Shown piece by piece: positions 15,086 to 34,517 of a DNA stretch of 64,000 bases. The DNA lies in the NCBI GenBank assembly GCA_016188545.1, contig JACPHO010000002.1:64013-128012 (forward strand). Direction: 5' to 3'. The notes beneath the pieces were generated by a model. It was not told the DNA's origin and did not search any database. It worked only from the letters and a program-made list of their open reading frames with translations. Position 1 is the first letter of the stretch, and each line of letters begins with the position of its first letter. Made by a program: the position numbers and the translations under genes. This stretch comes from Candidatus Shapirobacteria bacterium. GTDB lineage: Bacteria > Patescibacteriota > Microgenomatia > UBA12405.

Positions 15086-15750
15086 ATGACAATTTTAGAC
15101 AAGAACAATCAACTACCAATACAAATTGACTATTCTAGACAATATAAACAGGGTGAAACATTTAGGACTTCGGCATTTGTCTTGGAAGTACAACATCCTA
15201 ATCCAACACAAAATGATGTTGCAAAAATCGAAGGTTTGAGATAGGGAGGAATGCAGTGCTTCTCTACTTGCTTTGCTGCTTGGGCAGTTATGCAAGATCT
15301 CGTCCAAAAAAATGAAGTTAGATCTCTTATTAACAAAATAGACCGTGCTCTAGAAAATAATGGGGGGGTGTTTATGGATATAGCAGCTTGGCAATTGAAC
15401 AACTCTCAATAAACGCCGAACAAAAAGAAGAGATTCAATCAGCAACAAAAAATTCAAGCGTTTCGGCCGAGTGGAATTCTCTATCAGAAACTGAGAGGGG
15501 AAGAAATAATGCAAATCTATTGAAAAATGGTGGAGCACTAATTTTACAAAGCGGAAATCATTACAGACTGGTCTGCATTGACAATACTTCTAGGTTAGTA
15601 ATATTTGACCCATTACTTGGTAAAGTGACACCCATCAATTCTGAAACGGTATATGATTACGCTCGGCCAGAAACTATTGGAAGAACCGGCGCTGTAATAA
15701 TTGAGCTACCAACCTTCAAGGGACAAGATGAGGATTTTATAATGAACTAG
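15086..15750 (+). pseudogene. Possible frameshifted C39-like (papain-fold) peptidase gene split into three ORFs of 52, 52 and 120 aa
   Basis: Consecutive ORFs in different frames. The middle ORF has MQCFSTCFAAWAV (candidate catalytic Cys region). The last ORF has GNHYRLVCIDNTSRLVIFDPLLG, matching the His/Asp C39-like motif GGHFVLGVAV…IVTADP of the 1156-aa T4SS hydrolase. A G7 homopolymer lies at 15362-15368 near one frame break. Confidence 0.3.
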
Positions 15751-15807: not shown

Positions 15808-16074
15808 ATGACTATAACAGTGCAAATATCAGACTTTCGAAATAACATGGCAATGTATTTAGCAAAATTGAAAGTGGGACAAATTATTGATATCAAAAAA
15901 GGAGGTAAGTATTTAGCAAAACTTTCAAAACATCCTAAGGCAGTTGAAACTAGAGAATATAAAGATGCTGACGAATTTATGGCTAAGTTGAAGAAAATAT
16001 GGTCAATGCAGGCAAAAAGTAAAAAGAAGACCAATTACAGTATGAGAGTGGATGAAATCTTGTATGGTAAATAA
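15808..16074 (+). CDS. Phd/YefM-like antitoxin
   Basis: 88-aa protein. N-terminal ISDFRNNMAMYLAKLKVGQIIDI resembles the antitoxin fold. 3' end overlaps the downstream PIN gene by 23 nt. Confidence 0.55.
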   Translation: MTITVQISDFRNNMAMYLAKLKVGQIIDIKKGGKYLAKLSKHPKAVETREYKDADEFMAKLKKIWSMQAKSKKKTNYSMRVDEILYGK

Positions 16075-16474
16075 AAAAATCCTGATCGATAGTTGTGTTT
16101 GGATTGCGTTTTATGACAAAAACGACAGACAGCATGAAAAAGCAGTAGAATATTTTGAAAAAAATAAAGAGAAACAGTTTTTATATGTTATACATTTTTT
16201 GGTGTTAATCGAAACTTTGTCAATTTTGAAATATAAAAAGTTCGACCCTGAGATATTAAAAGAAATTAGAAGGCATGCCTCTGGTACTGAAGAAATTGAG
16301 ATTGTTAAAAGGGGTGAAATTAACTTATCACCAAAGATGTGGGGGTTATTTGAAACGGTTAACAGACTTGGAGTAGTAGACGTAATTTTGCTTGACTATT
16401 GTCTTAAAAATAATATGGAGATAGTTACTTTTGATGTGGCATTGAATGAATTGTGGAAGAAACTAGTTTTTTGA
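16052..16474 (+). CDS. vapC: PIN-domain ribonuclease toxin (VapC-like)
   Basis: N-terminal ILIDSCVWIAFYDKND (acidic D-x-x-x-x-D start) and C-terminal VVDVILLDYCLKNNMEIVTFD, typical of the PIN fold. Paired with the upstream antitoxin. Confidence 0.65.
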   Translation: MKSCMVNKKILIDSCVWIAFYDKNDRQHEKAVEYFEKNKEKQFLYVIHFLVLIETLSILKYKKFDPEILKEIRRHASGTEEIEIVKRGEINLSPKMWGLFETVNRLGVVDVILLDYCLKNNMEIVTFDVALNELWKKLVF

Positions 16475-22994: not shown

Positions 22995-25900
22995 ATGAAG
23001 AAGTTTGAATTGTATGAAGAACTAGGGCGGCTATCCGGCAGAGGTGAAATACTGGAAATATCTAATGCGGCTTACAATACCTGCAGTAGGTTATTTTCTG
23101 ACTTGGGAATGGGTGGAAAGTTTGATCCGACAAACCCAGGAAGGATGTTGGATGCTTTATATGGATTTGAAACAACGACAGGTAATAACAATAAAGTCAC
23201 TCAAGCATTGGAAGTAATTGAAGCAGACTTGAATCCTGCTGTGGAAACAAGAAATGACAAGGTGGGTCCAATGTCACTTAGGTCAGATCAATTAAAAGTG
23301 CTGCTTGATAAAGTTGATGAGAAAAAACATAGGGATGACGTAGAAGCGATGGCAACTGAAGCAACAAGAGAAAGATTGCTAAGGAATGCAGACCGTAACA
23401 TAGTGGTGGCAACACTAATAAAAAAGTTTGAAATACAGGAAAAACTCCATTCGATGGGAAAAACGAAGGCAGAGGCAGATAGACTTTCCGACCTAATCCT
23501 GGAGACTGGGCAAGTAGTAACGACCATTGTTGAAGATGATGAGTTTTTAGGAAAGGAATCACTTAGGCTAGCCGAAGAAATTGTGGAGCTGTCAGAGAAA
23601 GCCAAAACAACGGTCGAGGCAGTAGAGCTAGCAAAATCACTACAAGCTGAAAACTCAATTATAGATGCCAATGAAATGTTGCAGTACTTAGTAGAGACGA
23701 ACAGAGCCAGCCGAGAACTAGAAATAAAAATTGATGAAATAGCTAGAGATGTGGTAGCTGATGTTGAAAGAGAAGGAGGTTCGCTTGGGGGTAGGAAAGA
23801 TGAAGTACTAAAACTAATTGAAGAGAGATATGAGAAGGTACTAGTACATCCTGAGTATAATATTAATGAAGCAAAATACGAAACGAGAATAGGTGAAAAC
23901 GGAAGGTATGAGCGGGTAGTTGTCGAAAGAGGACTGACTGAAGAAATAGTTGAAATACTGAAAGGCGGAGCCAGAGGAAATATTCCAGGTAGACAGGAAA
24001 AAATAATTGAAGCAGTGGTGGAAAATAAGCTGGGAGCATCAGCAACTCCACTAACTGACGTGACCAATGCATCAACCGGAAATGAAGCAAAAATGATGAT
24101 GGAGAAACTCACATCACATGGTTTTGGGGCGGCAGATTTGAAAGCATTAATGAGATTGAGGTCGGGAGCGACAGAGTCGGGAATTGAGGGGATTGAAAAT
24201 GGATTGACACAAGAACATGAAATAAAAATAAAGATGGTAGGAAAGGGAGTGCCAGCAACGAAAATTGCTGAGGTGGAAATGGGAACTGTGGTAACGTCGA
24301 TGTTAAATGGCGATGAACCAATACCAGAGTTAGTTCAGAGAATTGAAAATGACTACAAAGCGAAGTTAGTCGGCACAGAGCATGGTGAAAGGAGACGACT
24401 AAAAGATGGTGATGTGCGTGTTGTTTCAAGGGGGTCAATTCCGGAAATGGAAGCTGTAGTAAAGGTAGCTGATAGGCTAAAAGACAGACCGGATTTGCAG
24501 GGCAGAATGGAGCTAATTCGAAAAATTGAAAAGGCAAAGAATTTTATTGATAGATATTCAGGTGGAGCAATAAGCAAAGCAATGGGAAACTCATCAATCC
24601 AAATTGGGAGAATAATGAAGATTGAGGGACTACAGCAGTTTGGAATGCAACTGGCTAGTCGTTATGGCGGGGTTATGGGGGAGGCAATGGCCTCTCAAAT
24701 AGTGAATTTTGGTTTTGAAAAGGGCTTACAAAACATCTTAGTCCAATTGCTTAGAACTGGAACTGTAAAGGCAGTGGAAGTGGGAGCAACAGGTGCAACA
24801 GCGGCCGCGGGAACAGCCGCAACCGGAACAGCACTTGCGGCTGGAGGACCGCCGACATGGATAGTAGCAGCGGTTTTGGCGGCAATAGCAGTGGTAAAAA
24901 AGGCCTGGAGTGGAATGGAAAAGGGTTTGATAAAAATGTTGGAGTTTTTGGGATTTGACTCGTACAAAACCCGAGAGTTTTTGAAAAACGGGGTGGGAAA
25001 AATAGTAACCGTTGGGGGAATGGCCATTGGTGGGGCAACAACAGTGATAATTGGTATTGGAGGGATGTTGATGTCTATACCGACAGGGATAATAGGGACA
25101 GTTTTTGCGATTGTATTGGCAGTATTGATTGGATACAACCTGCTTCAAGTGGCAACAACCCAAGTATCAAGTTTGGTGGTGCCAAAATCAGATCCGATTG
25201 TGGGGGCATGTATCAAAAAAGAGGATTTAACAGATCCCCCAACCGGACCGTTGGCCAATTGTAATGTAAACGCACCAGCATCGAATTATGGAGGAATAAG
25301 TAAAGATGCGTTTGTAACCCTAGCAGAAAGTTGGTCGGCAGGTGGCGGAGTCAATGCGGCAAGATGTTTTAATGATGTGGTTTGTAAGGCTTTAAGTGCT
25401 GGCATTAATCCGACATATGCACTGTGGGCATGGCTACATGAATCAGGAGCTAGTAACTATTCACTCGGGAGTGATATTGAAGATTTTGGGATACATTACA
25501 TCCCAGAAAATAATAATTTTAATGCGCAATGGGAGGCATTTGCCAAACTTGATCCAGCCTCAGGCTGCTCAGGGATTTCAGATTATTGGTTGGCTTTTGC
25601 CACTAATTATCTGAATGGCTCAGACCATTGCGACCCTGATTATCAGAATCCAACTTCAGGACAAACAGGAAGACAATATTTAGCCGAACTGCAAAGTACT
25701 TGGGAATGGTTAAATGCTGGGCCAATGCCAACATCGATACATGTGCCAAAACAAGCTTGTGGTGGAGGATCTCCTGAGGGTGGGGTAGAAGAAACGGATC
25801 CGAATACAGGCGAGAACTTTGTCTGCTTTGGGGGAGCAAAACTAGGCCCAAGTACCCCTTTAAACGGAGCTAAGAGTGGTGGATCGGTGTACAATCCAAA

Positions 25901-26465
25901 CGCGACAGGGCTAGAGGGAGAGAAAATACCAGGTGAATGTACTGTGTCTGATAAAGTGGTGTTGACAAAGCAGTGTGGACAGGCCTGGTCAAATAAAGGG
26001 TTACCTGGAGGATCGGGGACAATCTGCACAGCCGGCTGTGGACCAACCTCAGTCTCAATGATGCTGAGACACTTTAATGGGAGCCTAACACCAGATTCGG
26101 TTATATTTTCACCAGGGTCGGCATACAACTCAATGAACAACGATGGATCTAGTTTGGGACAAGCAACGGCGGAAATAAATAAATATTTTCCAGGAGCGGC
26201 TAGTAGTTCACAACCATGTGATGCTAAAGCAATTGGTGGTTGGATCTGTGCTGGAAAGGTGGTAATGGTGCTAGCTGATTTTTATAACAGCAACAGCTTG
26301 ACAGTGGGAGGACATTTTGTGTTGGGAGTGGCGGTTCAGAATGGAAGCATTGTAACTGCTGATCCTTACTATGCTACCAAAACTCCGTTTGATGGAACTA
26401 AAAAATATGGGTATGCTAGAAATATTCGGAGTTGTATTACTATTGATGCGAGTAAAATTAAATAA
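22995..26465 (+). CDS. Large T4SS-associated membrane protein with C-terminal C39-like papain-fold domain (VirB1/PrgK-type hydrolase analog)
   Basis: N-terminal ~550-aa coiled-coil region. Gly/Ala-rich TM helices at about residues 590-710. C-terminal CTAGCGPTSVSMMLRHF (nucleophile Cys) and GGHFVLGVAVQNGSIVTADPYY (His/Asp) as in Peptidase_C39-like domains. Positioned right after VirB4. Confidence 0.55.
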   Translation: MKKFELYEELGRLSGRGEILEISNAAYNTCSRLFSDLGMGGKFDPTNPGRMLDALYGFETTTGNNNKVTQALEVIEADLNPAVETRNDKVGPMSLRSDQLKVLLDKVDEKKHRDDVEAMATEATRERLLRNADRNIVVATLIKKFEIQEKLHSMGKTKAEADRLSDLILETGQVVTTIVEDDEFLGKESLRLAEEIVELSEKAKTTVEAVELAKSLQAENSIIDANEMLQYLVETNRASRELEIKIDEIARDVVADVEREGGSLGGRKDEVLKLIEERYEKVLVHPEYNINEAKYETRIGENGRYERVVVERGLTEEIVEILKGGARGNIPGRQEKIIEAVVENKLGASATPLTDVTNASTGNEAKMMMEKLTSHGFGAADLKALMRLRSGATESGIEGIENGLTQEHEIKIKMVGKGVPATKIAEVEMGTVVTSMLNGDEPIPELVQRIENDYKAKLVGTEHGERRRLKDGDVRVVSRGSIPEMEAVVKVADRLKDRPDLQGRMELIRKIEKAKNFIDRYSGGAISKAMGNSSIQIGRIMKIEGLQQFGMQLASRYGGVMGEAMASQIVNFGFEKGLQNILVQLLRTGTVKAVEVGATGATAAAGTAATGTALAAGGPPTWIVAAVLAAIAVVKKAWSGMEKGLIKMLEFLGFDSYKTREFLKNGVGKIVTVGGMAIGGATTVIIGIGGMLMSIPTGIIGTVFAIVLAVLIGYNLLQVATTQVSSLVVPKSDPIVGACIKKEDLTDPPTGPLANCNVNAPASNYGGISKDAFVTLAESWSAGGGVNAARCFNDVVCKALSAGINPTYALWAWLHESGASNYSLGSDIEDFGIHYIPENNNFNAQWEAFAKLDPASGCSGISDYWLAFATNYLNGSDHCDPDYQNPTSGQTGRQYLAELQSTWEWLNAGPMPTSIHVPKQACGGGSPEGGVEETDPNTGENFVCFGGAKLGPSTPLNGAKSGGSVYNPNATGLEGEKIPGECTVSDKVVLTKQCGQAWSNKGLPGGSGTICTAGCGPTSVSMMLRHFNGSLTPDSVIFSPGSAYNSMNNDGSSLGQATAEINKYFPGAASSSQPCDAKAIGGWICAGKVVMVLADFYNSNSLTVGGHFVLGVAVQNGSIVTADPYYATKTPFDGTKKYGYARNIRSCITIDASKIK

Positions 26466-27258: not shown

Positions 27259-27284
27259 AAATTCAAAAGTAAAAAGTAAAAAAT

Positions 27285-27584
27285 ATGAAAAAAATAATTT
27301 TAGGAATTGTTTTATCAACTTTAATTTTAAGTGGGTGTACAACAAAACAGAATACAGTTAAGACGGCTGAGGAGAAGTTGCAGGAAAGTGTGGTGACAAA
27401 AACAGGGACAATATCAACTAAAGTGGGAGATGAATATTTACTATCAACCAGAGATGGGATCGTAAATATTACCAGTAATAAAGTAAATCTTGATACTTAT
27501 ATGAAAAAACCAGTCAGAGTTACAGGGATGTTTTCTGGATCAACTCTTTACGTCGATAAAATCGAGAGTGCAATAACAAACTAG
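27285..27584 (+). CDS. Small lipoprotein
   Basis: Signal peptide with lipobox ILSGC-TT. Preceded by an (AAAAGT)n motif. Confidence 0.5.
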   Translation: MKKIILGIVLSTLILSGCTTKQNTVKTAEEKLQESVVTKTGTISTKVGDEYLLSTRDGIVNITSNKVNLDTYMKKPVRVTGMFSGSTLYVDKIESAITN

Positions 27585-27802
27585 AAACAGGAATATATCT
27601 AAACTACAGATATTCTTTTCTGAGCTCCATCCAGGTTTTGCCGAGGCGATTTTCGCCCAACTGATCCGCACCCCAACCCCAAACATTATCACGCCAGGAA
27701 TCTTCGATAATTTCCCACGATTTTTAGTTAGCTAAATTTTCTTCAAAAAAAATAGTGATCGGTTTGATTTAGTTCAACCCATTCAAACAGTTTAGTGTCA
27801 GA

Positions 27803-28159
27803 TTAAAGGATTTTTTTATATTCTTCTTGAACGTCAACATAAAATGCGGCTGTTTGAAGCATACTAATGCGCAAGTCAGCGTAACTAGCAGACTTTTTAG
27901 CATCAGGAGCTCCTGGATTTAACTTGCCTTTTTGCTGTTGTGCAGCAAATATTGCTGCATCAAGAGCGATACGACCGGCCTTACTTTCATTTCCAATCAC
28001 AATAAGCCCACCAAGATCTGGTTGTGGATTTTGGTGATTTGCTTCTATACTAACGATTTGATCGCTGATTTGTGCGTATTTCGGAGCGATAGCTTCACGA
28101 CTGGGACTGTTTTCGGGAATTTGAAAACCGGTTGGAAGATCAGGTACACTTGTTGGCAT
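27803..28159 (-). CDS. Hypothetical protein downstream of the transglutaminase-like gene (candidate partner or immunity protein)
   Basis: 118-aa ORF co-directional with and 77 nt after the transglutaminase-like gene. Region is GC-richer than its surroundings. Confidence 0.35.
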   Translation of the reverse strand: MPTSVPDLPTGFQIPENSPSREAIAPKYAQISDQIVSIEANHQNPQPDLGGLIVIGNESKAGRIALDAAIFAAQQQKGKLNPGAPDAKKSASYADLRISMLQTAAFYVDVQEEYKKIL

Positions 28160-28236
28160 TTTTGTTTTTTAATTATTAATTTATAAAATTAGTTTCGTTT
28201 TGGTTAGTAATTAATTATACAGTAATACTAGTTTTT

Positions 28237-28920
28237 TTAATGATCTTCTGGTCGATTATAATTCCGATTGAAGGTTTGGTTGGCTTCGGCTAATGTTCCG
28301 GCAAAACCATCGTTGGCAACATCAATAACATATATTGCACTCTTGGGGTTTGTATACCTTACCCACGCATGACCACCAAGTTCTTCGTCTAAATTTCTAT
28401 CGAGTGAAGCTTTTCCTCTCAAGAGTTGATCAGCGGTTAACCTTTGGGTAAGATATCCTGCTAATAGTGATTCATGGCGACAAACTCCGACATGGTTGTT
28501 AATGTAATAATCTAAACCAACCGGCTCTCCAGACGAAAAACCTTGATTGTAGACAGTTAGTTTTTTTTCGGAATAAGGTATATATTGCTCAACAATTTTA
28601 GCGATAGGTTTTAAGACCCTGTCTTTGAATGAAAATTTATTTTTATCAACCGGAGTATCTATTCTAGCTAAAAGATAACGATAAATATCGTGCAATATTG
28701 GCATTTTTCGATCATCAACATAGCACGCCTCTTCGTAGATATTTTTCCCGTCTGACATTACAAAAATACCACCGTTTATTGGGCCATCGCGATGAATGAG
28801 AGGCATGCCCTGATAGGTAGCTACTTCTGGTTGAGACTTATCAAAGAACAATTTTTTCTTGGGAGAAACAAATACTTTTGCATTTTCGGTATAGTTCCAA
28901 TTCTTAAGATCACCATTCAT
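28237..28920 (-). CDS. Transglutaminase-like / papain-fold cysteine enzyme
   Basis: Cys-His-Asp order: GVCRHESLLAGYL (Cys), GGHAWVRYTNP (His), IDVANDGF (Asp), as in transglutaminase-like cores. No signal peptide. Confidence 0.5.
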   Translation of the reverse strand: MNGDLKNWNYTENAKVFVSPKKKLFFDKSQPEVATYQGMPLIHRDGPINGGIFVMSDGKNIYEEACYVDDRKMPILHDIYRYLLARIDTPVDKNKFSFKDRVLKPIAKIVEQYIPYSEKKLTVYNQGFSSGEPVGLDYYINNHVGVCRHESLLAGYLTQRLTADQLLRGKASLDRNLDEELGGHAWVRYTNPKSAIYVIDVANDGFAGTLAEANQTFNRNYNRPEDH

Positions 28921-28928
28921 TTTAGAAT

Positions 28929-30053
28929 TTAATCCTGTATTCGAACAGGCATGATAATGTGGGTTAGTGTTGGATTGGAAGTATCTTGAAATAATCCAGG
29001 AGTCAGAGGTTCGTTGAGACTGATGATAATATTTTCACCTTGACAGATAGATAAAAAATCGGAAATAAATTTGTAGTTAAAGGCAATCTCAAGTGGTTCA
29101 CCTTCCACTTTGGAATCGACTGTGACTTTGTTTTGACCAACCTGGACAGCATTAGCTGAGACTTCAACTTGGTTGTTTTTGACAGACAGCTTAACAACAT
29201 TGGCTGATTCACGGGCAAAAACTGAAGCAATTTTTATGGACTGAGCGAACTCATCTTTGGAAAGGTTGATGGTAGTAGAAAAAGCACTAGGGATAATTCG
29301 GTTGTAATCAGGAAAGTCACCTTCAATAAGACGCGAAGATAGTTCAATATCAGGAGTAACAAAAACTAATTGATGAGAATCTTCACTGAGACCAAATTTT
29401 AATTTATCGACCGATTTTGTCATCTTGGAGACTTCAGACAAACTCTTTGAAGGAATCAGAAAAGTCAGTTGATCAACACTAGAGGGAAGAGTAATCGGTT
29501 CTACATGAACAATTTCTTTGACTGAGAGACGAAAACCGTCAGTAGCAACTAACTTGAAACTAGTAGAAGTAAAGATACAAAGAACAGCAGTGAGCACAGG
29601 TCGGGAATCGTCGGTAGATGAGGCAAAAACAACTTCAGATATGGCTGAGGAAAACTCCTTTAAAGAAATGTCGATGGCGGTTTTAGTGTTAATTGAAGGA
29701 ATGGCTGGATAATCAGAAGTTGGCGAAGTGGTAAAGGAAGAGTTGGCTTTTGATGAGGAAATTTCGAGTAAAGACTGTGGGTTGAGAGTAAGATCGAGTT
29801 TACCTGAAGGTAGATAGGAAATGAATTCAGTGATTTCTTTGGCGGGAATTGCCAAACTACCCTCGACATCAATCTTGCCACCAATCCAATAATTTATACC
29901 CATTTCAAGATTGGTAGCGGAGAGCTTGAGTCGGCCGTTGTTGGTGGTAAAAAGAATATGGCTGAGAATGGGTAACTGTGCTCTTAGGGCAACAAATCTA
30001 GAGACAGTGGAAAGAGCTGGGCTTAACGTTTCCTGGAGAAGTGACACCTTCAT
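28929..30053 (-). CDS. dnaN: DNA polymerase III beta sliding clamp
   Basis: 374 aa. Three-domain clamp-like composition. Immediately downstream of dnaA in the canonical dnaA-dnaN arrangement. Confidence 0.8.
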   Translation of the reverse strand: MKVSLLQETLSPALSTVSRFVALRAQLPILSHILFTTNNGRLKLSATNLEMGINYWIGGKIDVEGSLAIPAKEITEFISYLPSGKLDLTLNPQSLLEISSSKANSSFTTSPTSDYPAIPSINTKTAIDISLKEFSSAISEVVFASSTDDSRPVLTAVLCIFTSTSFKLVATDGFRLSVKEIVHVEPITLPSSVDQLTFLIPSKSLSEVSKMTKSVDKLKFGLSEDSHQLVFVTPDIELSSRLIEGDFPDYNRIIPSAFSTTINLSKDEFAQSIKIASVFARESANVVKLSVKNNQVEVSANAVQVGQNKVTVDSKVEGEPLEIAFNYKFISDFLSICQGENIIISLNEPLTPGLFQDTSNPTLTHIIMPVRIQD

Positions 30054-30403
30054 ATCTACAGTTTATAAAGTTTATAAGGTTTGTAAAGTTCATAAAGATT
30101 TGATGATGGTTGACGGTGAGGTGAATATGCGTTATTAGGTAAAAATGCTTTGTAGAACAGTAGTGTTAGTAGTAGAGTAGGTGAACAAGTTAATAATTAA
30201 CAATTAATAGTTAATAGTTGGGGATATTTTGAATATAAAATAATGTTAGTAAGCCGATAACCTTGGAGGTTAGTAGTAGATTTGCACGTTTTGGCTTATA
30301 AAACGAGCTTAGATTGGGGTAACCTTCGGGGGATAATGTGAGGATAAAATGTGGACAACTAAGTGGATAAGTATGTCAAGAAAGTGGATAACTTTAGTGA
30401 AGT
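30054..30403. promoter_or_regulatory. dnaA-dnaN intergenic origin element: DnaA-box cluster plus AT-rich 9-mer repeats
   Basis: TGAGGATAA 30338-30346, TGTGGACAA 30349-30357, AGTGGATAA 30361-30369 and 30382-30390 (consensus TGTGGATAA). Four tandem TTYRTAARG 9-mers at 30062-30097. Confidence 0.6.
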
Positions 30404-31756
30404 TTAAAAGGTCGACTTGATTTGGTTGATAAGTGTCCGCAATTGTGGATTAGTTGATAAGTCGGCGGCAACCTTGTCTCGGGCGTGCATGATACTGGTG
30501 TGATCCCGACCACCTAAAAGATGACCAACTTCTTTTAGAGGTAGGTTGATTTCATTGAGAAGGAGGTAGGCGGTAAGATGGCGGGCGGTGACTAAGTCTT
30601 TACGTCGACTGTTACCGCACAGTTCACTAGTTTTTAGATTAAAGTGTTTAGCACAAACGGAAATTATATGGCGAGGAGTGACTTTTTGAGAAAAGGTTGA
30701 GGCTGATGGAGAATCCGGGCTGAGAAAACTTTCAACAGTCTCAATGGTAATTGTGTGGATATTCTGGGATAGAGCAATGGCAGCAAGCTGCTGGACTTTA
30801 CCTTCGATATCTCGAGTGTTTGATTGGAGGTTATCAGCTAGAAACTGAGTGGCATCTGAGGCAATGACTATCCCCTTTTCGTTCGCTTTTTGGGTGATAA
30901 TAGCTGACCTCATTTCATAATCTGGGGGTTGGATGTCAACTGTTAATCCACCCATAAAACGTGAAACTAGCCGATCTTCTAGATCTTTAATATCGGATGG
31001 TTTACGATCCGAAGTGAGAATAACTTGCTTGCCGGCCATGTGAAGGGCATTGAAAGTGTGGAAAAATTCTTCTTGGGTGTAATCTTTACCGGCTATAAAC
31101 TGGATATCATCGACCAGGATACAGTCGAGATGGCGATATCTTTCTTTGAATTGATTGATGGATTTTGATTTTAGAGCTGCAATAAGCTCATTTCCAAAAG
31201 TTTCGGCGGGAAAGTATTTTATTTTGAGCGAAGAATTATTCTTGAGTAATTCATGTCCGATAGCTTGCATTAAGTGGGTTTTTCCAACCCCTACCCCACC
31301 CCAAATAAAGAAGGGATTGTAGGAAAGTCCGGGATTTTTGACGATTCCTTGGGCGGCGGCATAAGCGAAGTTATTACTGTTACCAACAATTAGATTTTCA
31401 AATGTGTATTTGGGGTGTAAGTTGGAACGGATAGAGTTGCTGTTTTGGATGGATGGTGGATTGTAAGTAAATAATGGGCCAGCTGGAGTGGCGACTGACT
31501 CGGCTTTAATAGGTTCTTGAACGATGAATTCAAGACTGTTGCTATTCTTGGTTTGGTTATCGAGAGCACTTTTAAAGAAAGAGTAGTACCTTTTTTGATT
31601 TATATCTGCGAGGTAGGCATTGGAACAGGCAATAGTAGCGACATTATTAGAGATGGCAATTAACTGAGTTTTTATTATAAAGGTCTGGTAAATTGAAGGC
31701 GCCAAAATTACATGAAGTTCCTCCTGAGTATTTTTCCAAAGTTGATCTAAGTCCAT
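30404..31756 (-). CDS. dnaA: Chromosomal replication initiator DnaA
   Basis: Walker A GGVGVGKTHLM. Box VII DDIQFIAGK. C-terminal DNA-binding HTSIMHARDKV. The ORF extends to 31843 but the extra 29 aa (…YVFTFYFLLFTLEV) come from an (AAAAGT)n repeat. The likely start is Met at 31756 (MDLDQLWKNTQEEL). Confidence 0.9.
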   Translation of the reverse strand: MDLDQLWKNTQEELHVILAPSIYQTFIIKTQLIAISNNVATIACSNAYLADINQKRYYSFFKSALDNQTKNSNSLEFIVQEPIKAESVATPAGPLFTYNPPSIQNSNSIRSNLHPKYTFENLIVGNSNNFAYAAAQGIVKNPGLSYNPFFIWGGVGVGKTHLMQAIGHELLKNNSSLKIKYFPAETFGNELIAALKSKSINQFKERYRHLDCILVDDIQFIAGKDYTQEEFFHTFNALHMAGKQVILTSDRKPSDIKDLEDRLVSRFMGGLTVDIQPPDYEMRSAIITQKANEKGIVIASDATQFLADNLQSNTRDIEGKVQQLAAIALSQNIHTITIETVESFLSPDSPSASTFSQKVTPRHIISVCAKHFNLKTSELCGNSRRKDLVTARHLTAYLLLNEINLPLKEVGHLLGGRDHTSIMHARDKVAADLSTNPQLRTLINQIKSTF

Positions 31757-31852
31757 GGGAGAAACTTCTAAAGTAAAAAGTAAGAAATAAAAAGTAAAAA
31801 CATAGTATAGATACGTTAAATTTAAACAACGATACTGGGGCAAAGTTTCGAG

Positions 31853-31884
31853 TTATCCACATCATAATAAATTAGTTTTCCACA
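31853..31884. promoter_or_regulatory. DnaA boxes upstream of dnaA (TTATCCACA 31853-31861, TTTTCCACA 31876-31884)
   Basis: One perfect consensus DnaA box and one 8/9 match in the dnaA 5' region. Coding-strand bias switches here. Confidence 0.55.
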
Positions 31885-31981
31885 TTTAACAAGATGTCAA
31901 ATCCCCTCTGTCTGCTGAATGGCGGACATCTCCCCTTGATACCCTAACGGGCACAGGTAAAGGGAGAAACACAAACTTGTT

Positions 31982-32437
31982 TTATAGACCGGCGGAGTAT
32001 TTAGCAGCCAGGCGAATTCTTGCTTGACCACCAATATCTTTTGGGTTAAATTTGAGAATCTTAGCATCGCCTATACCATCATTGTTTAATTTTTCAGCTG
32101 GTGATTCAGCAATTCTTGGTCTTTCAAAATCTGCCGTTGAGGCTATTTTAATAAAAGCTTCTGGGTGGGTGTAAAGTCGATCATCAAATCCAGTGACGGT
32201 AAAAGTTACGTCTGGAGTGGCGATTAAAACTTGTGAGTCTCCACCAGGATCAAATATGTTTTTACTAATCATAATGGGTTTTCCGTCCGGGAGAGTTGCA
32301 AGCATTAATCCATTTTTTTCTAAGTTGCCAATACTTAAAATTTCTTTGGCAAATTCCGGTAATCCTTCTAGTGTATCTTCAACGTCAGTAATGGGGATGG
32401 TATTTTCGTTTAAGTAGTATCTAGTACCGTCTGGCAT
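31982..32437 (-). CDS. Hypothetical protein (151 aa) between dnaA and rpmH
   Basis: Clean ORF with balanced protein-like composition. No motif recognised. Confidence 0.45.
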   Translation of the reverse strand: MPDGTRYYLNENTIPITDVEDTLEGLPEFAKEILSIGNLEKNGLMLATLPDGKPIMISKNIFDPGGDSQVLIATPDVTFTVTGFDDRLYTHPEAFIKIASTADFERPRIAESPAEKLNNDGIGDAKILKFNPKDIGGQARIRLAAKYSAGL

Positions 32438-32535
32438 AAGAATTTATAAAATAATAAATGTTATAAAATTATATCATTGGAAACAGCAGAGATTTGTCTA
32501 TTGGGAATTGGAGATAAGTAAGGTAGAATACTAGT

Positions 32536-33146: not shown

Positions 33147-33312
33147 AAAGTACCTTTCTGGGGGCTATTACTGCCGTTTTGCCCCGACTTGTAGTGAATA
33201 TACTTATGAGGCGGTGGAAAAGTATGGAGTTATAAAAGGGTTATGGCTCGGTACTAAACGAGTGGCAAAATGTCATCCTTTTGGGAAAAGTGGAATTGAT
33301 TTGGTACCATAG
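33079..33312 (+). CDS. yidD: Membrane protein insertion efficiency factor YidD
   Basis: YYCRFAPTCSEYTYEAVEKYGVIKGLWLGTKRVAKCHPFGKSGIDLVP is the YidD signature. Overlaps the rnpA 3' end as usual. Confidence 0.8.
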   Translation: MKLNSVGMEFMKKLVLKIIFWYKKYLSGGYYCRFAPTCSEYTYEAVEKYGVIKGLWLGTKRVAKCHPFGKSGIDLVP

Positions 33313-33315
33313 TCC

Positions 33316-34479
33316 ATGGGTTTTGGTAATGAAATAATACAAAAAATGGACGGGGTGCCTCCATATTTAAAAGAAGTTTCAATGGTGTTTGACCGAAAAG
33401 TGACTGCTTTAAGAAGTGAGTTTTTCGTGAATTGCAAAGACGGAGATCCTGAAGAAGTAGTTGGATTGTTTAAAAAAGTGTATTGTGATCGTGTGAAAAG
33501 TGAAGATGGGATGCGAGAGTCGATCTTTATTAGAAAGCCGTTAAAATTGGTTGATTGGTCTGATTTAAAGAATGAATTGTCTGAGTCTGAAAGAAGTGAA
33601 TACATAGTTAATGATTTAATTGAATCAACGGGTGAAGAAATAGCAAAAGTGGCAAAACATGATAGGAGTAAGGGAGCGGTTGAAGCGGCGTTTTTACTTT
33701 TAAACGGGATGCCTATTAACGTCGTAACTGCTGAATTAAGGCGTCAAGAGGTTCCATTTAATACTGAAAAAGCCGATGATCCATTATTTGCGGTGCTTAA
33801 TGAGGCAGTAATGGTGAGAAAAAGTATGGGTGAATATGTAAACACTCAGGAAATTTTCAATTATAAAGGTTTAAAAATAAATATAAATAATGAAGTAGAT
33901 AGCATCGGGATTCCGTTGACGGTATTTAAGTATTCAAGTGACGAATCTGATAGGCTCAGATTATTTCTTAAGGCAAATTTAGGAATAAATAATAAAACTA
34001 TAAGTGCGGATGATGCGACAAAGACGTGTAAGTGGTTACTGGAAAATTATGAGAAGGTTTATCGAGCTCAGGTGATAGATGGGGAAACAATTGCCCAGAG
34101 AATGGGAGAATGGCAATTCGCGAGAGAATATTTAGCTGATGTAAAAGTAAAAGATGTTAAAGACCTAAAAAATCAACATCAACTACAGTCCCACAGAAGA
34201 TCAATCGGTAACATGGTGGCCTTAAGAGGTGTGGAGCTATATTCTGAGGGTGACTATTATGAGGCATATACACAAATTGCTTTTGCTTTGTTTATTGGAA
34301 TACCGACAGATAAAATTATTGAGTTGTTAGATACTTATAAAAATGTTAGTTATGATTTGAGTGGAAAATCGAAAGAGTTTTTGTCGAAAATGTTGGTGAA
34401 TGCTAAAAAAGTTGAAGATAAAGTCAGACAGGAATTTGCAGAATTAATGCCGGAGCAAGTAGTCGAATTAATAGTTTGA
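33316..34479 (+). CDS. Hypothetical soluble protein (387 aa) inserted between yidD and yidC
   Basis: Long ORF with protein-like composition. No motif recognised. Confidence 0.5.
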   Translation: MGFGNEIIQKMDGVPPYLKEVSMVFDRKVTALRSEFFVNCKDGDPEEVVGLFKKVYCDRVKSEDGMRESIFIRKPLKLVDWSDLKNELSESERSEYIVNDLIESTGEEIAKVAKHDRSKGAVEAAFLLLNGMPINVVTAELRRQEVPFNTEKADDPLFAVLNEAVMVRKSMGEYVNTQEIFNYKGLKININNEVDSIGIPLTVFKYSSDESDRLRLFLKANLGINNKTISADDATKTCKWLLENYEKVYRAQVIDGETIAQRMGEWQFAREYLADVKVKDVKDLKNQHQLQSHRRSIGNMVALRGVELYSEGDYYEAYTQIAFALFIGIPTDKIIELLDTYKNVSYDLSGKSKEFLSKMLVNAKKVEDKVRQEFAELMPEQVVELIV

Positions 34480-34517
34480 TTTAGATATTGGACAGTTTCT
34501 TGCTAGAATAGAGGATT

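What the first reader, a model, noticed from the sequence alone, without database searches (positions are those of the whole stretch)
27585..28920. GC-richer islet with a transglutaminase-like Cys-His-Asp enzyme, a small partner gene, and a gene remnant, wedged between the T4SS module and dnaN
The 227-aa protein has the ordered motifs GVCRHES (Cys), GGHAWVRY (His) and IDVAND (Asp) of transglutaminase-like or papain-fold enzymes. It has no signal peptide and is followed by a 118-aa ORF. The flanking 27600-27720 stretch is GC-rich, noncoding, and translates on the minus strand into a protein-like fragment (…WRDNVWGWGADQLGENRLGK…), which suggests a decayed gene. The composition differs from the surrounding AT-rich DNA. 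This fits a horizontally acquired effector/immunity-like pair or toxin module next to a secretion system.
Basis: partly seen in the sequence, partly recalled or inferred. Interest (0 to 1): 0.55.

Follow-up and report, generated by a model that had tools for sequence, protein, structure and literature searches.

The report
Variable islet carrying transglutaminase-like enzyme
A 1.3-kb stretch found only in this lineage, slotted directly behind the replication gene dnaN of a tiny uncultured (CPR) bacterium, carries an intact enzyme gene from a widespread but undescribed family, one orphan gene and the stump of a dead gene; it is a real variable spot in the genome, but nothing shows it is a toxin system.

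Summary
The ORFs, the motifs and the remnant are real. The "GC-richer" claim is not: the region is 37.5% GC against 40.1% for the window, and both ORFs have native codon statistics. The 227-aa protein belongs to an undescribed family (757 cluster representatives, no Pfam or NCBIfam model) found almost only in CPR/Patescibacteria, plus a few MAGs labelled DPANN. Cys147, His184 and Asp200 are conserved in at least 219 of 222 members. A confident AF2 model has the papain/transglutaminase topology, and its best solved matches are a TGase and LapG. Family genes elsewhere sit among housekeeping genes with no conserved partner. Long members are often fused to FHA domains. The 118-aa ORF has no detectable homologue anywhere but looks coding. 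The "remnant" is the last third of a NADAR-domain gene. Six related contigs (DnaN 91-93% identical) all lack window 27585-28928. In three of them (two distinct sequences) dnaN and the T4SS lipoprotein gene abut. One has a different Bro-N gene at the same site. One has a 67-bp insert flanked by a 21-bp duplication of the dnaN end. So this is a lineage-specific islet at a hypervariable site. The effector/immunity reading is not supported.

The parts
27585..28928 (-). The whole lineage-specific segment (1,344 bp), lying between the stop codon of the T4SS-module lipoprotein gene (27582-27584) and the stop codon of dnaN (28929-28931).
   Evidence: blastn of the window against relative L069 aligns 27282-27584 and 28926-31901 to directly abutting, 7-bp-overlapping positions. 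The junction sequences were read. tblastn finds no 227-aa or 118-aa homologue in six related loci. An independent Logan assembly is 100% identical over 3,001 bp spanning the islet.
28237..28920 (-). Gene for a 227-aa cytoplasmic transglutaminase-like (papain-fold) Cys147-His184-Asp200 enzyme. It belongs to an undescribed CPR-wide family and starts 8 nt after the dnaN stop.
   Evidence: Coding score in its own frame is 0.144 bits per codon.
28160..28236 (-). A 77-bp spacer of 14% GC between the two ORFs. It holds a TGTATAAT (-10-like) match at 28214-28221 on the minus strand.
   Evidence: GC 0.143, the lowest 0.03% of windows of that size. The sequence was read. The promoter match is a consensus match only; the scan listed no full -35/-10 site there.
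27803..28159 (-). A 118-aa orphan ORF, probably a real lineage-specific gene of unknown function.
   Evidence: Coding score is 0.177 bits per codon, and its own frame is the only positive one of six. No homologue was found. There are no Pfam, NCBIfam, PADLOC, PHROG or PDB matches.
27604..27740 (-). The 3'-terminal relic of a NADAR-domain (YbiA-like) gene. It keeps 39 intact codons plus the stop (27604-27723). Weak homology runs about 5 codons further upstream across a stop codon. There is no start codon, and the N-terminal two thirds of the domain are missing.
   Evidence: Pfam NADAR E 1.7e-6, profile positions 118-161 of 163. With read-through of the stop the match covers 109-161. It is 67% identical over 33 aa to an intact 152-aa NADAR protein in L068, which itself scores 108.9 bits. 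No other NADAR piece is found in any frame. No RNA family, tRNA or unusual folding is present.
28929..28949 (-). The last 21 nt of dnaN (CCTGTTCGAATACAGGATTAA). In relative L072 the equivalent stretch is duplicated on both sides of a 67-bp insert, which makes it a candidate attachment or target sequence of the hot spot.
27585..27591 (-). The distal junction, CCTGTTT, followed by the lipoprotein stop codon CTA. It may be a 5-nt relic (CCTGT) of a duplicated dnaN end. This is weak evidence.
   Evidence: Read. No longer flanking repeat was found.

Best explanation
Window 27585-28928 is a lineage-specific islet at a hypervariable site immediately 3' of dnaN in a Candidatus Shapirobacteria genome. 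It holds three things.

(1) An intact gene for a cytoplasmic papain-fold (transglutaminase-like) thiol enzyme from a large, undescribed family that is almost confined to CPR bacteria, plus a few MAGs labelled DPANN archaea. Inferred chemistry:
- Cys147, at the N-terminus of a helix, is the nucleophile.
- His184, on the following beta-strand, is the general base.
- Asp200, on the next strand, orients the histidine.
- The enzyme would attack an amide bond of a protein substrate, acting as a protease/isopeptidase or as a glutamine deamidase/transglutaminase.

Relatives are repeatedly fused to phosphothreonine-binding FHA domains at either end. In Saccharibacteria they follow a receiver-domain gene. 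I therefore infer a regulatory protein-modifying role tied to phospho-signalling, not a toxin. In this genome the gene starts 8 nt after dnaN, so it is probably expressed by read-through of the dnaA-dnaN transcript.

(2) A 118-aa orphan gene with native coding statistics and no detectable relatives. It is not a conserved partner.

(3) The dead 3' third of a NADAR gene, left from earlier content of the same site.

Shown: the indel, family membership, triad conservation, the fold, the NADAR identity and the absence of a partner. Inferred: the catalytic activity, the substrate class, co-transcription with dnaN, and the direction and mechanism of the insertion.
For: Enzyme and fold:
- The family has 757 cluster representatives, with best identity 40%.
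- The triad is kept in 220, 219 and 221 of 222 members.
- The motifs GVCRHQALL, GGHAWxRYT and IIDPA follow the Transglut_core pattern.
- The AF2 model has pLDDT 89 and pTM 0.89. Cys147 sits at the start of helix 147-163, His184 in strand 182-190 and Asp200 in strand 196-200.
- Foldseek top hits in the PDB are 4xz7 'TGase' (probability 1.00) and 4u65_E, the LapG complex (0.99).
- Sub-threshold Pfam hits of members all fall in papain-like families: EDR1 12/60, DUF553 10/60, Transglut_core 7/60.

Context in other genomes:
- FHA is present in 16 of 28 long members, N- or C-terminal.
- A receiver gene lies directly upstream in Saccharibacteria.
- Neighbours are housekeeping genes and there is no recurrent partner.

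The other two parts:
- The 118-aa ORF has no homologues but a coding-like score.
- The remnant is a NADAR relic.

The indel and the hot spot:
- The segment is absent from L069, L073 and L074, where the dnaN and lipoprotein stop codons overlap.
- L072 has a 67-bp insert with a 21-bp duplication of the dnaN end.
- L071 has a Bro-N gene 4 bp after dnaN.
- L070 has yet another sequence there.
- The islet is identical in an independent assembly.
Against: - No enzymatic or expression data exist.
- The window protein itself matches no Pfam, NCBIfam or PDB sequence. Structural matches are modest (TM about 0.38, E 2e-3).
- The window copy departs from family consensus at three near-invariant non-catalytic positions: R39M, V67Y and E159Q. 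Its activity could therefore be altered.
- Polarity is unresolved. On a dnaN tree the window is the outgroup to all six relatives, and the empty-site genomes form one clade. Loss in that clade is not excluded.
- No recombinase gene and no clear flanking repeats were found in the window.
- Composition is native. That fits long residence or a compositionally similar donor, and gives no positive evidence of transfer.
- Some of the closest homologues sit beside DNA-repair genes, so a replication/repair role cannot be dismissed.
Confidence: 0.68

Rival explanations
1. The 227-aa enzyme is a toxin or effector, for example a papain-fold deamidase or protease. It would be delivered by, or associated with, the neighbouring T4SS-like system, and the 118-aa protein would be its immunity or antidote. 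The pair would have been acquired horizontally as a module.
For: - The segment is lineage-specific and sits at the variable end of the T4SS-like module.
- A small gene follows the enzyme gene.
- Two of 60 family members give weak hits to the papain-fold toxin family Gln_amidase.
- The adjacent relic is from NADAR, a family that includes antitoxins (PMC11125620).
- A relative carries a mobile-element-type Bro-N gene at the same site.
Against: - The enzyme has no signal peptide and no recognised trafficking domain.
- The gene is convergent to the T4SS genes and coupled to dnaN (sequence read).
- The 118-aa protein has no homologue next to any of 57 family loci, or anywhere else.
- Family genes lie singly among housekeeping genes.
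- Only 1 of 57 other loci has VirB4 nearby.
- There are no PADLOC, PHROG, phage, plasmid or viral-contig matches.
- A catalytically intact cytoplasmic toxin without a conserved antidote in hundreds of genomes is implausible.
Confidence: 0.1
2. The segment is ancestral, and the relatives lost it or replaced it. It would be ordinary gene-content decay rather than an acquired islet. The TGase-like gene would be the native, vertically inherited copy of the CPR family.
For: - Codon statistics are native, and third-position skew has the local sign.
- The family is vertically stable elsewhere. For example, Pacebacteria-type loci L007, L008 and L010 carry copies 66-73% identical to one another, and L007 and L010 also share gene order.
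- The window is the outgroup on the dnaN tree, so polarity is formally open.
Against: - Three different contents plus an empty state occur at exactly the same inter-stop position.
- The empty state has overlapping stop codons (CTAA), as expected of an undisturbed site.
- L072 shows a fresh 21-bp target duplication, which proves insertion activity there.
- The NADAR stump shows that the content turned over in the window lineage too.
- No protein more than 40% identical to the 227-aa enzyme exists in the databases, although relatives with 91-93% identical DnaN are sampled.
Confidence: 0.12
3. The enzyme is functionally tied to DNA replication or repair. It would, for example, process or modify a replisome or repair protein, and its position after dnaN would reflect that role.
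For: - It lies 8 nt downstream of dnaN.
- Family genes lie near dnaN in L027, and between dnaA and dnaN in L036.
- The closest homologues lie inside ruvC-x-x-FAM-ruvA-ruvB (L075) and directly upstream of fpg (L076). P0037 is next to polA and near lexA-recA-recX.
- Two RuvA genes, one PolA and one Tag glycosylase appear among 105 immediate neighbours.
Against: - The census of immediate neighbours gives roughly 10% replication/repair genes. That is about what two random neighbours give in a small, information-processing-rich CPR genome (the background rate is my estimate, not measured).
- The dnaN adjacency is absent in all close relatives of this very genome.
- The most recurrent neighbours are a receiver domain and ribosomal protein L27, not repair genes.
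Confidence: 0.08
4. The 118-aa ORF is not a gene. It would be a chance open frame in decaying inserted DNA.
For: - It has no homologue in about 15 billion proteins.
- No domain, structure or family match exists.
- It lies next to a pseudogene relic.
- There is no obvious Shine-Dalgarno sequence (read).
Against: - Its frame-specific coding score equals the mean of trusted genes, and the other five frames are negative. Shadow ORFs of similar size in the window score between -0.47 and +0.11.
- Its third-position skew and GC3 behave like those of a translated gene on this strand.
- It is preceded by a discrete 14%-GC spacer, typical of an intergenic region.
Confidence: 0.25

Closest known systems
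LapG / BTLCP bacterial transglutaminase-like cysteine proteases (MEROPS C93; PDB 4u65) and the related EDR1/CTR1/ARMC3 peptidase-like domain (Pfam PF14381)
   Same: - It has the same ordered Cys-His-Asp triad on a helix-strand-strand core.
- 4u65_E is the second-best solved-structure match (probability 0.99).
- PF14381 is the most frequent sub-threshold Pfam hit among family members, 12 of 60.
- The literature places EDR1 close to C93 and C71 (PMC10318531).
   Different: - No member reaches the Pfam threshold.
- LapG is a periplasmic, calcium-dependent protease controlled by LapD (established knowledge). This protein has no signal peptide.
- It has its own conserved N-terminal beta-domain (GRxIIxRDxPINGGVY...EAIVVDD).
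- It is restricted to CPR and a few MAGs labelled DPANN.
Transglut_core (Pfam PF01841) / DUF553 (PF04473), the transglutaminase-like superfamily of Makarova, Aravind and Koonin 1999; a solved TGase, 4xz7
   Same: - The motif pattern matches: G-x-C-R...L-L / HAW-x-R-Y / I-D-P.
- The Cys-to-His (37 residues) and His-to-Asp (16 residues) spacing matches.
- 4xz7 is the best solved-structure match (E 2.3e-3, probability 1.00).
- 7 and 10 of 60 members give sub-threshold hits. One aligns to profile positions 2-98 of 108.
   Different: - The window protein gives no hit at E<=1.
- The best member scores 19.3 bits against a cut-off of 23.
- TM-score is only 0.38, because only the C-terminal core aligns.
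CPR-C4 (PDB 7OB6), the one characterised CPR-wide transglutaminase-like protease, with remote homology to vasohibins (PMC9108980)
   Same: - It is a roughly 220-aa cytoplasmic protein of a large CPR-enriched family with no conserved gene neighbourhood.
- It has a transglutaminase-like fold with near-invariant Cys and His.
- Protease activity was shown for CPR-C4. That makes a hydrolase role plausible here by analogy.
   Different: - It is a different family. CPR-C4 uses Cys61-His93-Leu115 (backbone carbonyl) and binds zinc. Here the triad is Cys147-His184-Asp200 with an invariant Asp.
- Neither the family profile against all PDB sequences nor the 50 best-ranked Foldseek hits shown retrieve 7OB6, 7OB7, 7PJO or vasohibins.
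NADAR / YbiA domain proteins (Pfam PF08719), which are N-glycosidases and DNA/RNA de-ADP-ribosylases, some acting as antitoxins (PMC11543638, PMC11125620)
   Same: The relic aligns to the C-terminal motif D-x-x-W-G-x-G...G-x-N-R-L-G...M-E-L-R of the domain.
   Different: - Only profile positions about 109-161 of 163 survive.
- There is no start codon, and the N-terminal two thirds of the domain are gone. It cannot be functional.
- No DarT-like or other ADP-ribosyltransferase partner is present.
Integration hot spots at the 3' ends of conserved genes (as for tRNA/tmRNA-targeting islands) and integron-like cassette arrays
   Same: - Different cargo occupies one precise site in related genomes.
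- Cargo genes share the orientation of the upstream conserved gene and start 4-8 nt after it.
- The target end is duplicated in L072.
- A truncated older gene lies distal to the intact one.
   Different: - No integrase or recombinase was identified, and no attC-like or long att repeats flank the window islet.
- The target is a protein-coding gene end, not a tRNA gene.
- The mechanism is entirely inferred.

Membership tests
Transglutaminase-like / papain-fold thiol enzyme superfamily | Catalytic Cys, His and Asp in that order, conserved across homologues | tested here: met
   C147 is kept in 220 of 222 sequences, H184 in 219 and D200 in 221. The motifs are visible in alignment A1.
Transglutaminase-like / papain-fold thiol enzyme superfamily | Cys at the N-terminus of an alpha-helix, with His and Asp on two successive beta-strands packed against it | tested here: met
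   In the AF2 model (pLDDT 89.1) the helix spans 147-163 and the strands span 182-190 and 196-200.
Transglutaminase-like / papain-fold thiol enzyme superfamily | Structural similarity to solved members | tested here: met
Transglutaminase-like / papain-fold thiol enzyme superfamily | Thiol-dependent hydrolase or transferase activity | not testable with these tools
   This needs biochemistry.
Pfam Transglut_core (PF01841), DUF553 (PF04473), EDR1_CTR1_ARMC3_pept (PF14381) | Score at or above the curated gathering threshold | tested here: not met
   The window protein gives no hit at E<=1. Members give only sub-threshold hits, the best being 19.3 bits against 23 for PF01841. It should not be filed in any of these families.
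CPR-C4 / vasohibin-like proteases | Cys-His-Leu (backbone carbonyl) triad, and sequence or fold similarity to 7OB6 or the VASH proteins | tested here: not met
   Asp is invariant at the third position. There is no PDB sequence hit with the family profile. The 50 best-ranked Foldseek hits shown contain no 7OB6, 7OB7, 7PJO or VASH entry. The CPR-C4 features come from PMC9108980.
Secreted effector or polymorphic toxin with cognate immunity protein | A conserved immunity gene immediately downstream of the toxin gene across homologues | tested here: not met
   The 118-aa protein has no homologue in 57 family loci, by tblastn or by phmmer --max, nor in the 5.8-billion-protein collection. Downstream neighbours do not cluster.
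Secreted effector or polymorphic toxin with cognate immunity protein | A secretion signal or trafficking domain, and recurrent linkage to a secretion locus | tested here: not met
   The N-terminus is hydrophilic (read). A VirB4-like gene lies within 6 kb in only 1 of 57 other loci. The orientation is convergent to the T4SS genes. No dedicated signal-peptide predictor was available.
Known anti-phage defence or phage protein families | A match to PADLOC or PHROG models, or presence on phage, plasmid or viral contigs | tested here: not met
   all returned nothing for the 227-aa and 118-aa proteins.
NADAR domain (PF08719), tested for the remnant | A significant match to the family profile | tested here: met
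   E 1.7e-6 at 28.9 bits, profile positions 118-161 of 163. The score is below the 35.1-bit whole-domain cut-off, as expected for a fragment. The nearest intact relative scores 108.9 bits.
NADAR domain (PF08719), tested for the remnant | A complete domain in an intact ORF, which would make it a functional member | tested here: not met
   There is no start codon, a stop lies at 27724-27726, and no N-terminal NADAR similarity appears in any frame. It is a pseudogene relic.
Site-specific integrative element or cassette | Direct repeats of the target at both ends, and a recombinase | tested here: inconclusive
   Relative L072 has a 21-bp duplication of the dnaN end around a 67-bp insert. The window islet has only a 5-nt CCTGT relic.

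The most novel reading that the evidence does not exclude
The few bases between the stop codons of dnaN and the convergent T4SS lipoprotein gene would be a site-specific cassette-insertion hot spot in this Shapirobacteria clade. Promoterless one- or two-gene cargos would be inserted directly behind dnaN and expressed from the replication operon. Examples are the TGase-like enzyme, a Bro-N protein and, earlier, a NADAR gene. Newer cargo would push older cargo distally and truncate it. This would be an integron-like gene-capture mechanism in ultra-small CPR genomes with no integrase next to the site. In parallel, the cargo enzyme would represent an undescribed FHA-coupled protein-modifying family that is nearly specific to CPR and a few DPANN-labelled episymbiont MAGs.
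Probability: 0.2. Interest if true: 0.6.

Novelty: new member of a known kind. Interest (0 to 1): 0.4.

Why it matters
CPR bacteria make up a large share of bacterial diversity, and most of their proteins have no assigned function. This family has hundreds of sequence clusters, an almost invariant catalytic triad and repeated FHA fusions, yet no Pfam or NCBIfam model. It is therefore a concrete, testable candidate for a regulatory protease or protein-modifying enzyme specific to these episymbionts. The precedent is CPR-C4, which went from hypothetical protein to demonstrated protease. Separately, the locus shows fine-scale gene flux at a precise site behind dnaN among related Shapirobacteria. 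Such flux is rarely documented for CPR genomes, which are usually described as streamlined and static. Neither point overturns current understanding. The main practical result is that a plausible-looking 'toxin/immunity next to a secretion system' call is not supported.

Tried and rejected
1. RNA gene or structured element in 27585-27802. There were no Rfam hits at E<=1 and no tRNA or tmRNA. Folding z-scores were -0.17 and +0.42.
2. Direct annotation of the 227-aa and 118-aa proteins. Pfam, NCBIfam, PADLOC, PHROGs and PDB sequence searches all found nothing.
3. Single-sequence AF2 of the 227-aa protein. It gave pLDDT 34.6, which is useless, and it wasted one of the two structure jobs. As a result the 118-aa protein and the pair could not be modelled.
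5. An extension of the NADAR relic upstream. A 'TDHYFF*RKF' piece in another frame resembles the EHYxQAxKF motif, but it adds nothing to the Pfam score. Rejected.
6. The 118-aa ORF as a frameshifted NADAR N-terminus or a DarT/ART toxin. There was no similarity in any frame and no PADLOC hit.
7. A second family relic at window 15388-15750. tblastn gave E 0.001 with one member. It was not confirmed by the family HMM (E 2.2) or by Pfam.
8. Linkage of the family to T4SS genes, to dnaN or to DNA-repair genes. None exceeds a rough chance expectation.
9. Family members on viral contigs, phages or plasmids. None were found.
10. Flanking repeats or att sites around the window islet. Nothing convincing was found. 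The L072 hairpin unit occurs nowhere else in the held sequences.
11. Literature. No paper describing this family was found. CPR-C4 is a different family.
12. Taxonomy of the nearest homologues through cluster look-up. The sources give no names.
Full report
**Source and layout.** The window comes from a Candidatus Shapirobacteria (CPR/Patescibacteria) MAG. The 227-aa and 118-aa proteins are HYV64_03825 and HYV64_03820, both annotated as hypothetical. On the minus strand the order is dnaA (30404-31843), dnaN (28929-30053), the 227-aa ORF (28237-28920), a 77-bp spacer, the 118-aa ORF (27803-28159), and then 218 non-coding bases. On the plus strand a T4SS-like module runs towards them. It comprises a PrgI-like protein, a 239-aa protein, an 872-aa TraG/VirB4-type ATPase (E 5e-29), a 1156-aa protein with a C39-like peptidase domain, two small proteins and a 99-aa lipoprotein that ends at 27584.

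**Observation check.** The compositional claim fails.
- The region is 37.5% GC against 40.1% for the window, and 79% of equal-length windows are at least as GC-rich.
- Only the 120-bp remnant reaches 47%, and 12% of windows of that size do as well.
- A frame-aware trinucleotide model trained on 32 genes of the window scores the 227-aa and 118-aa ORFs at 0.144 and 0.177 bits per codon. Trusted genes score 0.168 +/- 0.087. The other five frames are negative, and shadow ORFs score between -0.47 and +0.11.
- GC3 is lower than in neighbouring genes: 0.30 and 0.24 against 0.39 +/- 0.06. Third-position GC skew has the local sign but lies in the low tail: 0.22 and 0.31 against 0.50 +/- 0.14.
- The visible dip in total GC skew comes mostly from first codon positions and from the Trp/Gly-rich remnant.

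**The 227-aa protein.**
- Alone it matches nothing in Pfam, NCBIfam or PDB sequences. A word-indexed search of 5.8 billion proteins finds only the protein itself.
- An exhaustive HMMER scan finds 757 cluster representatives at E<=1e-3, of which 420 are at E<=1e-10. The best is 40% identical.
- An alignment of 60 sequences shows the blocks GRxIIxRDxPINGGVY...EAIVVDD, GVCRHQALLxGYLLE, GGHAWxRYT and IIDPA.
- In 222 sequences Cys147 is kept in 220, His184 in 219 and Asp200 in 221.
- With this alignment AF2 gives pLDDT 89.1 and pTM 0.89. The model has an N-terminal beta-rich domain, a helical linker, Cys147 at the start of helix 147-163, His184 in strand 182-190 and Asp200 at the end of strand 196-200. 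That is the papain/transglutaminase arrangement.
- The best solved-structure matches are 4xz7 ('a TGase', probability 1.00) and 4u65_E, the LapG protease in complex (probability 0.99). TM-score is only about 0.38.
- Members give sub-threshold hits only to papain-like families: EDR1_CTR1_ARMC3_pept in 12 of 60, DUF553 in 10, Transglut_core in 7, NAT in 3 and Gln_amidase in 2. One member aligns to Transglut_core positions 2-98 of 108.
- The published classification places EDR1 next to C93 (LapG) and C71 (PMC10318531).
- The protein therefore belongs to the transglutaminase-like superfamily but to none of its described families.
- The one characterised CPR-wide TGase-like protease, CPR-C4, is a different family. 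It uses Cys61-His93-Leu115 and binds zinc (PDB 7OB6). Neither the sequence profile nor the 50 best-ranked Foldseek hits shown retrieve it.

**Family distribution and context.**
- Pattern scanning of one genome per GTDB species found 57 loci. They come from Levy-, Pace-, Shapiro-, Gottesman-, Uhr-, Falkow-, Doudna-, Peri- and Saccharibacteria, other Patescibacteria, and a few MAGs labelled DPANN archaea.
- Records titled 'uncultured Pseudomonadales/Gammaproteobacteria' are evidently mislabelled. For example, one has a GroEL 85% identical to, and syntenic with, that of a Patescibacteria MAG.
- Neighbours are housekeeping genes. By reading their sequences I identify EF-P, GenX, GroEL, PGK, LeuRS, PheS/T and an M23 peptidase; ribosomal protein L27 was identified by Pfam.
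- The only recurrent arrangement is in Saccharibacteria. There a 133-147-aa receiver-domain gene directly precedes a longer (400-460 aa) family member, which is followed by rpmA.
- Sixteen of 28 long members carry an FHA domain, at either the N- or the C-terminus. Independent fusions of this kind argue for a functional link to phosphothreonine signalling.
- VirB4 lies nearby in 1 of 57 other loci and dnaN in 2 of 57.
- The closest homologues sit in ruvC-x-x-FAM-ruvA-ruvB, upstream of fpg, or beside polA. However, a census of 105 immediate neighbours gives about 10% replication/repair genes, roughly what chance would give.
- No family member was found in phage, plasmid, viral-contig, PADLOC or PHROG collections.

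**The 118-aa ORF.** It has no homologue in the large collections, and none in or near any family locus even with unfiltered phmmer. No domain or structure match exists. Its coding statistics are those of a real, resident gene. It is preceded by a 14%-GC spacer holding a TGTATAAT match. I treat it as a probable lineage-specific orphan gene (about 0.75), not as a conserved partner.

**The remnant.**
- The 39-codon frame matches the C-terminus of Pfam NADAR (E 1.7e-6, profile positions 118-161 of 163). Reading through the upstream stop extends the match to position 109.
- A degenerate-pattern scan of metagenomes found relatives. The best is an intact 152-aa protein on a 183-kb contig whose neighbours look T4-like (my reading). 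It is 67% identical over 33 residues and scores 108.9 bits for NADAR.
- No N-terminal NADAR similarity survives in any frame, so this is a dead 3' stump.
- NADAR proteins are N-glycosidases or nucleic-acid de-ADP-ribosylases, and some act as antitoxins (PMC11543638, PMC11125620). No ADP-ribosyltransferase partner is present.

**Comparative genomics, the decisive result.**
- DnaN belongs to a 90%-identity cluster of nine proteins, whereas the 227-aa, 118-aa and 99-aa proteins are singletons.
- In relative L069 (DnaN 92.8% and DnaA 92% identical; T4SS proteins 82-98%) the syntenic region runs rnpA-rpmH-dnaA-dnaN and then straight into the lipoprotein gene and the T4SS module.
- blastn aligns window 27282-27584 and 28926-31901 to abutting positions in L069.
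- In L069, L073 and L074 the two convergent stop codons overlap (GACTAA/CTA).
- L072 has, at exactly this point, a 67-bp double-hairpin insert flanked by a 21-bp duplication of the dnaN end.
- L071 has a 281-aa Bro-N-domain gene starting 4 nt after dnaN.
- L070 has yet another sequence there.
- The islet is identical in an independent assembly.
- Polarity is not fully settled. On a dnaN tree the window is the outgroup (78-81% DNA identity), and the empty-site genomes form one clade.
- Even so, several facts favour repeated insertion or replacement over simple ancestral retention: multiple unrelated contents, a fresh target duplication, the NADAR stump, and the absence of any homologue above 40% identity despite sampled relatives.
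- No recombinase or convincing att repeat was found in the window.

**Interpretation.** The most likely account has three parts. The first is a lineage-specific islet at a hot spot behind dnaN. The second is its main cargo: an intact, probably dnaN-co-transcribed, cytoplasmic thiol enzyme of a CPR-wide transglutaminase-like family. I infer that it cleaves or modifies protein amide bonds in a phospho-signalling context. The third is an orphan gene and a NADAR stump alongside it. The effector/immunity model is not excluded for this particular copy, but it has no positive support and several counts against it.

**Verdict.** The enzyme is a new family-level member of a known superfamily. Interest is moderate.

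Noticed in passing
window 31902-32523 and 33307-34502: There are two further lineage-specific indels relative to L069/L070. One holds a 151-aa orphan ORF (31982-32437, -) between dnaA and rpmH. The other holds a 387-aa ORF with no Pfam match (33316-34479, +) between rnpA/yidD and yidC. The whole dnaA neighbourhood therefore collects orphan genes in this lineage.
   Followed up: partly
whole window (1-64000): Strand asymmetry is very strong. Third-codon-position GC skew measured on the + strand is about +0.49 for genes on both strands. Cumulative GC skew rises monotonically with no switch at dnaA/dnaN. By the skew criterion, the replication origin is therefore not at dnaA within this window.
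   Followed up: partly
window 22995-26465 compared with L069 12768-16199: The large T4SS-module protein differs sharply between relatives. It is 1156 aa with a C-terminal C39-like peptidase domain here, and 1143 aa with an M23 peptidase domain in the relative. The two are only 35% identical, while flanking T4SS proteins are 82-98% identical. The small proteins downstream also diverge: the 147-aa protein is 48% identical, and the 137-aa protein has no match.
   Followed up: partly
L072 2569-2656 (relative; the site equivalent to window 27585-28928): A 67-bp insert made of two similar hairpin units (TTTACCCGCC...GGTGGG) is flanked by a 21-bp direct duplication of the dnaN 3' end. The DNA fold z-score is -1.9.
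   Followed up: partly
L071 2247-3092 (relative): A 281-aa Bro-N-domain gene (27.8 bits, above the cut-off) occupies the same dnaN-3' site and starts 4 nt after the dnaN stop. I know Bro-N as a domain typical of phages and mobile elements.
   Followed up: partly
window 15086-15750 (+): Three short consecutive ORFs are separated by one in-frame stop and one frameshift, which suggests a pseudogene. The last one (120 aa) gives a weak tblastn hit (E 0.001) to the C-terminal His/Asp region of one family member. The family HMM (E 2.2) and Pfam do not confirm it.
   Followed up: yes
window 15808-16474 (+): By eye, the 88-aa and 140-aa ORFs look like an antitoxin followed by a PIN-domain (VapC-like) toxin. 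They overlap by 23 nt. This was not tested with any tool (sequences shown).
   Followed up: no
loci L005, L008, L010, L024, L043 and others (genome contigs records): GTDB representative records titled 'uncultured Pseudomonadales / Gammaproteobacteria / Methanosarcinales (binchicken...)' carry CPR-type loci. Their housekeeping proteins are 68-85% identical to, and in two cases (L024/L006, L010/L007) syntenic with, those of Patescibacteria MAGs. The organism names in those titles are unreliable.
   Followed up: partly
L004, L029, L032, L034, L047, L051 (Saccharibacteria loci): A block is conserved across most of these loci: CHAP protein, S41 peptidase, CTP synthase, receiver-domain protein, long (400-460 aa) family member, then rpmA on the opposite strand. 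CTP synthase is missing in L032 and L051, and in L047 (family member 244 aa) two other ORFs separate it from rpmA. The N-terminal extension of about 200 aa in these members has no Pfam match.
   Followed up: partly
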